Shown here: positions 21,001 to 24,000 of the stretch, in pieces | Layout: each line of letters opens with the position of its first letter | Numbering within the stretch: position 1 is the first letter of the stretch | Assembly: GCF_017348835.2 (NCBI RefSeq) | Contig: NZ_CP071375.1 | Length of the DNA stretch: 64,000 nucleotides | Source of the DNA: Escherichia coli | Lineage (GTDB): Bacteria > Pseudomonadota > Gammaproteobacteria > Enterobacterales > Enterobacteriaceae | Direction: 5' to 3' (one strand) | Program-made: the position numbers

Positions 21001-24000
21001 CGCGCCGGAAGCAATAACACCCAGGCCGATGCCCGGGAAAATAAAGGCGTTGTTACACTGGGCGATAGGGTAGATTTTATCTTTCCATACCACTGGATTA
21101 AACGGGCTGCCCGTGGCGACCAGCGCGTTACCTTCGGTCCAGGCGATAATGTCCTGCGGTGTGGCTTCCACGCGTGACGTCGGGTTAGACAGCGGCATCA
21201 CGATCGGACGCGGACAGTGTTTATGCATCTCACGGATGATCTCTTCCGTAAACAGCCCTGTCTGTCCTGAGACGCCAATCAGAATATCTGGTTTTACATT
21301 GCGCACCACATCCAGCAGTGACAGCACATCGCTGTCGGTATCCCAGTCACTGAGGTTTTCGCGCTTCTGCACCAGTTTGGTCTGGAAAGGCAGCAGGTTC
21401 GGCATCTTGTCGGTCAGCAGGCCAAAGCGATCGACCATAAAGACTTTCTGCCGCGCCGCTTCCTCGCTTAATCCTTCACGCTGAGTCTGGGCGATGATCA
21501 TTTCGGCAATGCCGCATCCCGCTGAACCTGCGCCAAGGAAGACGATTTTTTTCTCGCTTAACTGACCACCTGCCGCGCGGCTTGCTGCGATCAGGGTGCC
21601 GACTGTTACCGCCGCAGTGCCCTGAATGTCATCGTTAAAGGAACAAATTTCATTGCGATAGCGGTTAAGTAACGGCATCGCATTTTTTTGTGCGAAGTCT
21701 TCAAACTGCAACAGCACGTCCGGCCAGCGTTGTTTCACAGCCTGGATAAATTCATCAACGAATTCATAGTATTCGTCGTCGGTGATACGCGGATTACGCC
21801 AGCCCATATACAGCGGATCGTTAAGCAGCTGTTGGTTGTTGGTGCCGACATCCAGCACCACCGGAAGGGTATACGCCGGGCTGATGCCGCCACAGGCGGT
21901 ATAGAGCGACAGTTTACCGATCGGAATGCCCATCCCGCCGATGCCCTGGTCACCAAGCCCCAGAATACGTTCACCGTCAGTCACCACAATCACTTTGATA
22001 TTATGGTTTGGTACGTTTTGCAGAATATCGTCCATATTGTGGCGGTTCTGGTAAGAGATAAACACGCCGCGTGAACGGCGGTAGATCTCAGAAAAACGCT
22101 CACAGGCTGCGCCGACGGTTGGGGTATAAATAACAGGCATCATCTCATCAAGATGATTGTTTACCAGACGGTAGAAGAGGGTTTCGTTGGTGTCCTGGAT
22201 GTTACGCAGGTAGATGTGTTTGTCGATTTCGGTTTTGAATCCCTGATACTGGATCCATGCTCGTTCCGCTTGTTCTTCGATGGTTTCGACCACTTCCGGC
22301 AGTAACCCCAGCAGGTTGAAGTTACGGCGTTCTTCCATGCTGAAGGCACTGCCTTTATTCAACAACGGAAATTCCAGCAGTACAGGGCCAGCGTAAGGGA
22401 TATAAAGCGAACGCTGTTTTTTTGTTTTTGGTTCCATGTCACTCACTCTTTTTTGAATATCCATCCCTGGCACGCTTTTATCGTCTTTGCTTTACCGCCA
22501 GGGCGTCGGCCCCAAGTATAAAGCAGATAAAAACAAAAACACCATTGCGCAGGCAATGGTGTTTAATCGTCATTGAGGACTGATGGTTATGAATTACTTT
22601 TCAGCGGGGCGTTTTCTGCCGGTTGGGTTATTTACCACGCTGGATTTGTCACCTTCGGTAACTATTTTGCGCTGGTTAGAAATTTTATGGTCCAGTCCAA
22701 GAATATGACGTGCCTGACGGTTCGATTTCATTTTAACTCCTCAATCCTGTTGCTAGTTTTAAGGACAACATCGCCGTAGCGAAGAAACACGTGCTAAACC
22801 CCTAAATTAGGTTGCCGATCAAGCATAGCACCTTAAAGCGTAGGGTGCTGGCCACTGACCACATAATTGATCGTTTGCTGGTAGATATCACTGAGGATGT
22901 CGTTATCAGAAGCTTCCACCCATTTGGTCAGCTCCATGAGAATGTCATCTTCAGTGACAACACCGTGCTCTGCCCGAAGGCCTTGCTCAATGGCATTAAC
23001 CTGAGCGGGTTCTGCTGTTGAATTTTCTGCCTGATAATAAGTAAACATAGTGATTCTCCGTGTCTGTGTATTTATGGTGTCTGCTACGGATCGCAGATTT
23101 ATAAAGCACATTCAGCATGGCAAATATTTGCCGCTTCGTTGTTAAGATTAGTCCTGGTTGATGATTTTTATATTTTAACCCCATGATATTGATAGGTATT
23201 ATTATTGTGATGAGTTGATTAATATTGATGCAATCTCTCTTGAGATATATATTTCAGGTTATCTATTGTGGGAATTTAATTTAAGTGCAGAAGTAATATT
23301 TTCGCCGTATTTTATTCGGAATATCCTGCTTATCCTCGTGCGGTTTCTCACGTAGTCTATAATTTCCTTTTTAAGCCCACAGGAGAGCAACAATGACAAT
23401 CCATAAGAAAGGTCAGGCACACTGGGAAGGCGATATCAAACGCGGGAAGGGAACAGTATCCACCGAGAGCGGCGTGCTGAACCAACAGCCGTATGGATTT
23501 AACACGCGTTTTGAAGGCGAAAAAGGAACCAACCCTGAAGAACTGATTGGCGCAGCGCATGCCGCATGTTTCTCAATGGCGCTTTCATTAATGCTGGGAG
23601 AAGCAGGATTCACGCCAACATCGATTGATACCACCGCCGATGTGTCGCTGGATAAAGTGGATGCCGGTTTTGCGATTACGAAAATCGCACTGAAGAGTGA
23701 AGTTGCGGTGCCGGGTATTGATGCCTCTACCTTTGACGGCATCATCCAGAAAGCAAAAGCAGGATGCCCGGTCTCTCAGGTACTGAAAGCGGAAATTACG
23801 CTGGATTACCAGTTGAAATCGTAAAGCATTGCCGGATGACGCGTCATCCGGCGAACACTTACTGCGCTACCCAACCGCCATCCATATTCCACGCCACCCC
23901 ACGCACTTGTGCTGCCGCATCCGAACAGAGAAACAGCGCCAGTTCACCCAGTTGTTGCGGAGTCACAAATTCACGAGAAGGCTGTTTTTCTGCCAGTAAG

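What the first reader, a model, noticed from the sequence alone, without database searches (positions are those of the whole stretch)
23831..23852. REP-like palindrome at the osmC-proximal boundary of the accessory block
A perfect 22-nt palindrome (gccggatgacg/cgtcatccggc) lies between the osmC stop (23824) and the convergent SDR stop (23859). A partial copy of the same GCCGGATG core (gccggatgtcgcgtcc, 30626..30641) sits at the other boundary, overlapping the ddpF stop. REP elements are known recombination and insertion hot spots, so the block's gain or loss may have occurred by recombination at a REP sequence. The palindrome could also act as a bidirectional terminator or mRNA stabiliser.
Basis: seen in the sequence. 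Interest (0 to 1): 0.4.

Follow-up and report, generated by a model that had tools for sequence, protein, structure and literature searches.

The report
REP-type hairpin after osmC stop
The 22-base palindrome is real and is a worn-down copy of E. coli's common REP hairpin repeat, sitting where two genes that face each other end; it most likely marks or protects the ends of both messages, and the gene block beside it is an old block that most E. coli have lost, not one that this strain gained.

Summary
**Observation: confirmed.** GCCGGATGACG/CGTCATCCGGC lies at 23831-23852, 6 nt after the osmC stop and 6 nt before the convergent 3-hydroxybutyrate dehydrogenase (SDR) stop. It is the longest perfect palindrome in the window.

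**What it is.**
- Its outer 7 bp (GCCGGAT/ATCCGGC) match the lower stem of the E. coli y-type REP.
- It lacks the GTAG tag and the stem bulge that define REPs, so it is a degenerate REP derivative.
- It is single-copy per genome.
- Citrobacter species carry REP-type hairpins at the same spot, one with a CTAC tail. Nearly all 80 Enterobacterales loci examined have a strong hairpin just after osmC.
- Best reading (inferred, no RNA data): a shared 3'-end hairpin, acting as terminator or decay block, for osmC and the convergent operon.

**The block is ancestral, not accessory.** The order osmC, block, ddpF is the same in about 14 Citrobacter species and in a divergent Escherichia. Only about 229 of 5,426 E. 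coli genomes keep it.

**Loss and the repeats.**
- K-12-type homology ends inside the palindrome's right arm (23846) and resumes at 30641, right after a 14/15 direct copy of the left arm.
- So the breakpoints do coincide with the repeats.
- The K-12 junction is not a clean recombinant. It carries 33-34 extra nt, and no clean recombinant was found.

Ordinary biology; low novelty.

The parts
23831..23852 (.). Perfect 22-nt palindrome GCCGGATGACG/CGTCATCCGGC. As RNA it forms a 9-bp stem with a CGCG loop. The outer 7 bp equal the lower stem of the y-type REP.
   Evidence: Comparison with canonical REPs.
23829..23854 (+). Extended hairpin in the osmC-sense RNA. It has 11 bp because U-A and U.G pairs are added outside the palindrome.
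   Evidence: Minimum-free-energy structures (-21.1 kcal/mol, z = -4.24).
23393..23824 (+). osmC (peroxiredoxin OsmC). The stop TAA is at 23822-23824, 6 nt before the palindrome.
   Evidence: RefSeq annotation of the identical locus in strain PE164.
23859..24629 (-). 3-hydroxybutyrate dehydrogenase (SDR), last gene of the convergent operon. Its stop at 23859-23861 lies 6 nt after the palindrome.
   Evidence: NCBIfam NF009093, 371 bits against a cut-off of 258.
24641..29572 (-). Rest of the operon: GntP permease, 3-hydroxyacyl-CoA dehydrogenase, acetyl-CoA C-acetyltransferase, and 3-oxoacid CoA-transferase subunits B and A.
29714..30604 (+). Divergent LysR-family regulator; right-hand end of the block.
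30623..30640 (+). Direct partial copy of the palindrome's left arm: ATAGCCGGATGTCGCGTC, 16/18 against 23828-23845. It directly abuts the ddpF stop (CTA at 30641-30643). Most other block-bearing strains have C instead of T at 30634.
30641..31567 (-). ddpF. Homology to block-less genomes resumes exactly at its stop codon.

Best explanation
**What it is.** The palindrome is a REP-derived hairpin. It has the y-type lower stem, a shortened perfect upper part, and has lost the GTAG tag and the bulge. It fills the 34-nt spacer between the convergent stop codons of osmC and of the 3-hydroxybutyrate/acetoacetate operon.

**How it works (inferred).** Transcribed from either strand, it folds into a stable GC-rich stem-loop. 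That stem-loop defines or protects the 3' end of both mRNAs. It would pause or terminate RNA polymerase without a U-tract, so termination would be Rho-assisted or collision-assisted. It would also block 3'-to-5' exonucleases. This is what is described for other REPs.

**History.** The hairpin belongs to the osmC 3' end and is older than E. coli. The neighbouring block is also ancestral and has been lost in about 96% of E. coli. In the common K-12-type loss allele, the deletion removed the distal 6 nt of the right arm, and a different, longer hairpin now follows osmC.

**Shown:**
- the sequence, the predicted fold and the conservation of the stem;
- the synteny of the block;
- the positions of the breakpoints.

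**Inferred:**
- the RNA-level function.
For: **Position**
- The palindrome is 6 nt from each of the two convergent stops.

**Stability**
- Plus strand -21.1 kcal/mol, z = -4.24; minus strand -21.8, z = -2.08.

**Conservation of the stem**
- All 229 block-bearing E. coli match at least 80% of the 30-nt query spanning the palindrome. The five read in full show at most one change, at the centre.
- Two divergent Escherichia lineages (L010, 91% nt identity; L009, 96%) show 0 of 36 stem changes against 13 of 24 changes in the flanking spacer; Fisher p = 5e-7. Their loops differ: CGCG, CGTG and TGTTG.

**Same site in relatives**
- In 11 Citrobacter species the same site holds a hairpin with the invariant GCCGGAT/ATCCGGC lower stem and varied interiors. 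Some are bulged REPs, one with a CTAC tail.
- Nearly all 80 Enterobacterales loci have a strong hairpin soon after the osmC stop, mostly within about 15 nt. In Enterobacter and others it has a T-run, as in a classic terminator.

**Every E. coli allele keeps a strong hairpin after osmC**
- K-12 -29.7, GN06156 -31.4, ST131 -30.2, E69 -19.9 kcal/mol.
- The K-12-type hairpin has 5 G.U pairs and folds better as osmC-sense RNA than as antisense (-29.7 against -25.7).

**Literature**
- REPs act as combined terminators and decay blocks, and about 30% of convergent intergenic regions in E. coli contain one (bioRxiv 10.64898/2026.03.23.713779).

**Ancestry of the block**
-.
Against: - No experimental 3'-end data for osmC or the operon were found.
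- There is no U-tract on either strand, and the terminator scan does not call the site.
- The lower-stem pairs never vary, so they give no covariation evidence. Their constancy could reflect REP turnover or gene conversion rather than selection on RNA.
- The flanks of L009 may not be orthologous, which would weaken the stem-versus-flank test.
- REP effects on expression are reported to depend on context.
Confidence: 0.65

Rival explanations
1. The two REP-like direct repeats (23831-23845 and 30626-30640) were the substrate of the deletion that removed the block in the ancestor of K-12-type E. coli, by slippage or short-homology recombination. On this view the main significance of the palindrome is as a recombination hot spot.
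For: - The repeat is 14/15 (16/18 with flanks), sits in the two junction spacers, and is in direct orientation.
- Homology to K-12 ends one base after the left copy (23846) and resumes at the first base after the right copy (30641).
- The K-12 spacer equals the predicted recombinant plus a 34-nt insert placed exactly at the repeat/ddpF joint.
- The second deletion, which removed the ddp operon in ST131-type strains, also starts at a REP-like head, GCCTGATGCGT.
Against: - The clean recombinant was not found in 5,426 genomes. The caveat is that this search needs an exact 28-mer.
- The 33-34 extra nt are single-copy and of unknown origin, so a second event or a complex event must be assumed.
- The right copy is weak in the other block-bearing Escherichia (L010: GCCGATTGCCGCATT, 9/15) and absent in Citrobacter.
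- The independent loss in E69 left the palindrome intact.
- Under an alternative alignment, the ddpF-proximal REP-like remnants of K-12 and of the window are allelic. The right breakpoint would then lie about 20 nt further left. That similarity is not significant, p = 0.09-0.38.
Confidence: 0.25
2. It is an active, mobile REP that the RAYT transposase TnpA_REP can move, or one end of a REP-bounded mobile cassette that carries the block.
For: - The lower stem is identical to that of y REPs.
- The block is flanked by direct partial copies.
- REP number varies nearby between strains.
Against: - There is no GTAG/CTAC next to the stem and no bulge. Both are required for TnpA_REP activity (PMC8266576).
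- The exact palindrome is single-copy.
- The block has no transposase or integrase.
- The block matches at one place per genome (median 1) in E. coli, and the 14 or so Citrobacter loci that carry it all have it between osmC and ddpF.
Confidence: 0.03
3. It acts at the DNA level, either as a protein-binding site (for example gyrase, IHF or HU as at BIMEs, or a dimeric regulator on a perfect palindrome) or as a cruciform with no RNA role.
For: - It has perfect two-fold symmetry.
- REPs and BIMEs have been reported as protein-binding sites (abstract of PMC2817692).
Against: - It is a single unit, not a BIME.
- It lies at the 3' ends of genes, away from promoters.
- K-12-type alleles keep pairing through G.U pairs, which work only in RNA of one strand.
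- Relatives have ordinary terminators at this site.
Confidence: 0.05
4. It is a chance palindrome with no function.
For: 2 of 200 simulated windows reach an 11-nt arm.
Against: - It matches the REP lower stem.
- The stem is conserved across Escherichia while its flanks diverge.
- Citrobacter has REP-type hairpins at the same position.
Confidence: 0.02

Closest known systems
E. coli y-type REP (REP_Ec of the group 2 REPtron; PMC8266576)
   Same: - The lower stem GCCGGAT/ATCCGGC is identical.
- It is an extragenic GC-rich stem-loop at gene 3' ends, between convergent genes.
- The orthologous site in Citrobacter carries bulged REPs, one with a CTAC tail.
   Different: - It is 22 nt and perfectly symmetric, not a 35-nt imperfect palindrome.
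- It has no GTAG/CTAC tag and no AA-GC bulge.
- The upper stem and loop are reduced to GA-CGCG-TC.
- The exact sequence is single-copy per genome.
REP325 in the yjdMN operon, and REPs between convergent genes, acting as combined terminator and mRNA-decay block (bioRxiv 10.64898/2026.03.23.713779)
   Same: - A hairpin in the 3' UTR without a U-tract.
- It lies between convergent genes, where REPs are proposed to act in both directions.
   Different: - REP325 is an array of 12 hairpins with experimental support.
- This is a single degenerate unit with no expression data.
Intrinsic terminators that follow osmC in Enterobacter, Klebsiella and other Enterobacterales
   Same: Same position, a few nucleotides after the osmC stop, and a strong GC stem.
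   Different: - Those have the stem GCCGGGnnnnCCCGGC or similar, often followed by a T-run.
- The hairpin in Escherichia and the Citrobacter freundii group has the REP sequence and no T-run.
Bidirectional terminators between convergent genes (SEnd-seq study, cited as reference 47 in the preprint above)
   Same: One symmetric hairpin shared by two convergent transcription units.
   Different: Whether 3' ends map here has not been tested; I found no data for osmC.

Membership tests
E. coli REP (y/z1/z2, REP_Ec) | Conserved GTAG tetranucleotide 5' of the stem (CTAC 3' on the other strand) | tested here: not met
   The flanks are AGCATT and GAACAC. The requirement is stated in PMC8266576.
E. coli REP (y/z1/z2, REP_Ec) | Imperfect palindrome of 29-37 nt with the conserved AA-GC mismatch bulge in the stem | tested here: not met
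   It is 22 nt and 100% complementary. Canonical copies in K-12 loci are 30-32 nt between the stem ends and have the GC/TT mismatch.
E. coli REP (y/z1/z2, REP_Ec) | Family-specific lower-stem sequence (GCCGGAT...ATCCGGC for y) | tested here: met
   7 of 7 bp are identical to y REPs in K-12 loci L004 and L005. The stem is invariant in 16 orthologous hairpins.
E. coli REP (y/z1/z2, REP_Ec) | High copy number in the genome | tested here: inconclusive
   The exact palindrome occurs once per genome. The GCCGGAT...ATCCGGC family is multi-copy in the loci held. No whole-genome scan with a family model was possible.
E. coli REP (y/z1/z2, REP_Ec) | Extragenic, at gene 3' ends (between tandem or convergent genes) | tested here: met
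   It sits in a 34-nt spacer between two convergent stops.
E. coli REP (y/z1/z2, REP_Ec) | Recognised and cleaved by TnpA_REP (RAYT) | not testable with these tools
   This needs an in-vitro cleavage assay. It is predicted to be negative because GTAG and the bulge are missing.
BIME (cluster of REPs in alternating orientation) | Two or more REPs in alternating orientation with set spacing | tested here: not met
   There is a single unit in the spacer, and no other REP-pattern match in the 64-kb window.
Intrinsic (Rho-independent) terminator | GC-rich stem-loop directly followed by a U-tract | tested here: not met
   The stem is present, but the scan finds no terminator here. The tails are GAACACUU on the plus strand and AAUGCUUU on the minus strand.
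Intrinsic (Rho-independent) terminator | RNA 3' ends map at the base of the stem | not testable with these tools
   No 3'-end data for osmC were found.
Mobile island with att sites or target-site duplication | Direct repeats at both ends, plus a recombinase, and occurrence at variable loci | tested here: not met
   Repeats are present. There is no integrase or transposase. The locus is the same in E. coli, another Escherichia and Citrobacter. GC content is like the flanks.

The most novel reading that the evidence does not exclude
The osmC 3' hairpin is under selection strong enough to have been rebuilt after the deletion. On this reading, loss of the ancestral 3-hydroxybutyrate block through the REP-like direct repeats destroyed the right arm. 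The 34-nt K-12 'filler' is then a newly made or recruited inverted partner of the left arm, kept complementary only at the RNA level through 5 G.U pairs. That would be a natural example of compensatory re-creation of a terminator/stabiliser hairpin at a deletion scar.
Probability: 0.1. Interest if true: 0.4.

Novelty: new member of a known kind. Interest (0 to 1): 0.2.

Why it matters
Mostly it corrects a reading. The 6.8-kb 3-hydroxybutyrate/acetoacetate cluster between osmC and ddpF is not an acquired island. It is an ancestral Escherichia/Citrobacter cluster kept by about 4% of sequenced E. coli.

The palindrome beside it is the usual kind of REP-type 3' hairpin, not a mobile-element boundary.

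The locus is a small, clean example of two things. REP-like sequences coincide with deletion end-points: the block loss, and then the loss of the ddp operon in about 20% of genomes. And every allele keeps a strong hairpin after osmC.

It could serve as a natural allelic series for testing REP function at convergent genes. It does not open a new question.

Tried and rejected
- **REP annotation of K-12.** The copy of NC_000913.3 held by the tool lists no repeat features at all. Even the well-known REP near 5565 is missing. Annotation therefore could not be used.
- **Experimental 3' ends for osmC.** Four literature searches and two supplement searches found nothing.
- **Rfam at E <= 1 over 22500-31500.** No match.
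- **Is the K-12-specific 33 nt homologous to the window's LysR-ddpF spacer?** Not significant, p = 0.09-0.38.
- **Origin of the K-12 filler.**
  - Nothing in the block or the window.
  - Single-copy in E. coli.
  - Only an 11-nt match to the head of z1 REPs.
- **Clean repeat-mediated recombinant allele.**
  - The first search was uninformative because the tool joins pieces.
  - The second found only block-bearing right junctions.
- **'Unique' sequence of the ST131 allele.** It is a 53-nt internal remnant of ddpF, not an ancestral spacer.
- **Formal covariation count.** Dropped, because the 7 lower-stem pairs are invariant and the inner parts do not align.
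Full report
**1. The observation**

The sequence gccggatgacg/cgtcatccggc is at 23831-23852, exactly as described. It has two 11-nt arms, 100% complementary, with no spacer.

The osmC ORF (23393-23824, plus strand) ends in TAA at 23822-23824. The minus-strand ORF 23859-24629 ends at 23859-23861. The palindrome therefore sits in a 34-nt spacer, 6 nt from each of two convergent stop codons.

Several results show it is more than chance.
- It occurs once in the window even with 3 mismatches allowed, against 0 expected.
- It is the longest perfect zero-spacer palindrome in the 64 kb; the next best arm is 8 nt. 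Only 2 of 200 Markov-1 simulated windows reach an 11-nt arm.
- As RNA, the plus strand folds at -21.1 kcal/mol (z = -4.24; 11 bp including an outer U-A and a U.G pair). The minus strand folds at -21.8 (z = -2.08).

The 'partial copy' at 30626-30641 also exists, and its last base is the first base of the ddpF stop.
- The shared 8-mer GCCGGATG is not above chance in the window: 4 found against 2.4 expected.
It is 14/15, or 16/18 with flanks, and one search reports family D3 of 26 nt at 81%.
- Matches of that quality occur by chance somewhere in 7 kb.
- One placed exactly in the two short junction spacers is improbable by my own rough calculation.

**2. The surroundings**

The window is E. coli chromosome. 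It is identical over the compared stretches to strain PE164.

Between osmC and ddpF lie:
- 3-hydroxybutyrate dehydrogenase;
- a GntP permease;
- a 3-hydroxyacyl-CoA dehydrogenase;
- an acetyl-CoA C-acetyltransferase;
- 3-oxoacid CoA-transferase subunits B and A;
- a divergent LysR regulator.

These assignments come from the RefSeq annotation and NCBIfam. This is a catabolic cluster for 3-hydroxybutyrate and acetoacetate. It has no recombinase, and its GC content (0.50-0.56) is like its flanks.

**3. Population structure of the locus**

The 5,426 complete E. coli genomes fall into these classes.

| Allele | Genomes | Evidence |
|---|---|---|
| Block-bearing, all with the same two junctions | 227-230 | |
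| K-12-type: osmC and ddpF 55 nt apart | about 4,060 | |
| No ddp operon: osmC followed by dosP (e.g. ST131 strain 81009) | about 1,117 | |
| Other | a few | |

- In the ddp-less class, the apparently unique spacer contains a 53-nt internal remnant of ddpF. This class is therefore derived from the K-12 type.
- In the block-bearing class, the only changes seen in the five strains read in full were C->T at the palindrome centre and T/C at 30634.

**4. The block is ancestral**

A scan of one genome per species with OsmC, followed by tblastn of the block proteins, gave these results.
- The full order (osmC, SDR, GntP, 3-hydroxyacyl-CoA dehydrogenase, thiolase, CoA-transferase B and A, LysR, ddpF) is present in about 14 Citrobacter species, at 77-96% amino-acid identity. 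That is the same range as the flanking OsmC (92-97%) and DdpF (78-80%).
- It is also present in a divergent Escherichia lineage (L010). L010 aligns to the window in one collinear 15-kb segment at 91% identity.
- Enterobacter species have osmC next to ddpF, or separated by an unrelated gene.

So the block was not gained by this strain. Most E. coli have lost it.

**5. What the palindrome is**

Its outer 7 bp are identical to the lower stem of the y-type REP (GCCGGATGCGGCGTGAACGCCTTATCCGGC in K-12 loci).

The orthologous spacer between osmC and the SDR gene in 11 Citrobacter species holds a hairpin with the same invariant lower stem.
- Seven species have the bulged REP form GCCGGATGCGAC...GTCTTATCCGGC. 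One spacer (L025) holds two such units, the first followed by CCTAC.
- Four have a perfect form, GCCGGATGCG-nnnn-CGCATCCGGC.
- Three other Citrobacter genomes have unrelated hairpins there.

Within Escherichia, the 9-bp stem is unchanged in L010 and in L009. L009 is a block-less, ddp-less lineage at 96% identity. The loops differ (CGCG, CGTG, TGTTG), and the 12 flanking spacer bases differ at 5 and 8 positions. That is 0 of 36 stem changes against 13 of 24 flank changes, p = 5e-7.

By the published definition, E. coli REPs are imperfect palindromes of 29-37 nt preceded by GTAG, with an AA-GC bulge. Both features are needed for TnpA_REP (PMC8266576). The element fails this definition:
- it has no GTAG/CTAC tag;
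- it has no bulge;
- it is only 22 nt;
- the exact sequence is single-copy.

I therefore file it as a degenerate, immobile REP derivative. It works like a REP but does not meet the membership criteria.

**6. Function (inferred)**

Nearly all 80 Enterobacterales loci have a strong GC hairpin soon after the osmC stop, mostly within about 15 nt. In Enterobacter and others it has a T-run, like a classic terminator. The site is therefore a conserved 3'-end position for osmC, which REP-type sequence occupies in Escherichia and the Citrobacter freundii group.

No U-tract follows the stem on either strand, and the scan does not call a terminator. This is typical of REPs. REPs are reported to act as partly Rho-dependent terminators and as decay blocks. 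They occupy about 30% of convergent intergenic regions (bioRxiv 10.64898/2026.03.23.713779).

Every E. coli allele keeps a strong hairpin right after osmC. The K-12-type hairpin has 16 bp including 5 G.U pairs. It folds better in the osmC sense (-29.7 kcal/mol) than in antisense (-25.7), which hints at selection on the osmC transcript.

I found no experimental 3'-end data, and Rfam has no match.

**7. The recombination idea**

Homology between block-less genomes and the window ends at 23846, after GCCGGATGACGCGTCA. That is one base beyond the left repeat copy and inside the palindrome's right arm. Homology resumes at 30641, the first base after the right copy. With a 3-nt gap (TCC), the match extends through GGCG to 23853. 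That is suggestive only.

The breakpoints thus coincide with the repeats, and block-less strains do retain REP-like sequence.

Several points argue against a simple repeat-mediated deletion.
- The K-12 spacer is not the expected recombinant. It equals that product plus 34 nt (AGGCGCGTGAATGCCTGATGCGTTGTTAGCATCT).
- That filler is single-copy. It has no source in the block or window. It shares only an 11-nt z1-REP head with other sequence.
- A search built so that only a clean recombinant or the block-bearing right junction could seed found only the latter.
- The right copy is much weaker in L010 (9/15) and absent in Citrobacter.
- L009 lost the block independently and kept the whole palindrome.
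- An alternative alignment makes the ddpF-proximal REP-like remnants of the two alleles allelic and shifts the right breakpoint by about 20 nt. That similarity is not significant.

I rate repeat-mediated deletion as possible, about 0.25, but unproven.

**8. Verdict**

- it is REP-like;
- it is a likely bidirectional 3'-end element;
- the breakpoints do sit at the repeats.

It is partly wrong:
- the block is ancestral, not accessory;
- there is no clean recombination product;
- the element is not a canonical or mobile REP.

This is a new, unremarkable member of a well-known kind of element. Interest is low.

Noticed in passing
window 18797-18848 (spacer between fdnI and yddM); K-12 locus L004 20010-20390: The window has a single terminator-like hairpin here. 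K-12 has two tandem units of about 178 bp, each carrying a hairpin, a y REP and a z1 REP. L009 has one y+z1 pair and L010 has one y REP. REP/BIME copy number therefore varies between strains at this spot.
   Followed up: partly
window about 18848-19410 (from L002 4456-5018): This strain has a RelE/ParE-family toxin gene next to yddM, a HigA-type antitoxin. K-12 has yddM alone, so K-12's yddM looks like an orphan antitoxin.
   Followed up: no
L006 2933-3121 (E. coli ST131 strain 81009): About 1,117 of 5,426 E. coli genomes lack the whole ddp operon, so osmC is followed by dosP. The spacer keeps a 53-nt internal remnant of ddpF. The deletion starts right after the REP-like head GCCTGATGCGT.
   Followed up: partly
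L093 355-400 (E. coli strain 4/2-1): A 17-nt tandem duplication, GTTAGCATCTCTACAGC, spans the ddpF stop codon in a subset of K-12-type genomes.
   Followed up: no
L009 5423-6717 (record titled E. coli E69; about 96% identical to the window): This lineage has neither the block nor the ddp operon. Broken pieces of an omptin-like (OmpT family) outer-membrane protein gene lie between the osmC hairpin and dosP. The family is judged by eye from the translation and was not tested.
   Followed up: no
window 30582-30589 (3' end of the LysR gene): A run of 8 A is 7 A in strain SCU-102 and 9 A in strain GmM066. This changes the annotated length of LysR (296 aa here, 299 and 294 aa in those strains). It could be real phase-type variation or homopolymer sequencing error.
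   Followed up: no
L008 3001-3480 (E. coli STEC1587): osmC is truncated after about 190 nt and joined to the digH region. This larger deletion removes the hairpin, the ddp operon and dosCP.
   Followed up: no
L001 1939-1987 (K-12 spacer between osmC and ddpF): The K-12-type spacer folds into a 16-bp hairpin with 5 G.U pairs. It is more stable as osmC-sense RNA (-29.7 kcal/mol) than as antisense RNA (-25.7). Its right arm starts with a z-type REP head (GCCTGATGCG) and ends in CTAC, which is also the ddpF stop.
   Followed up: partly
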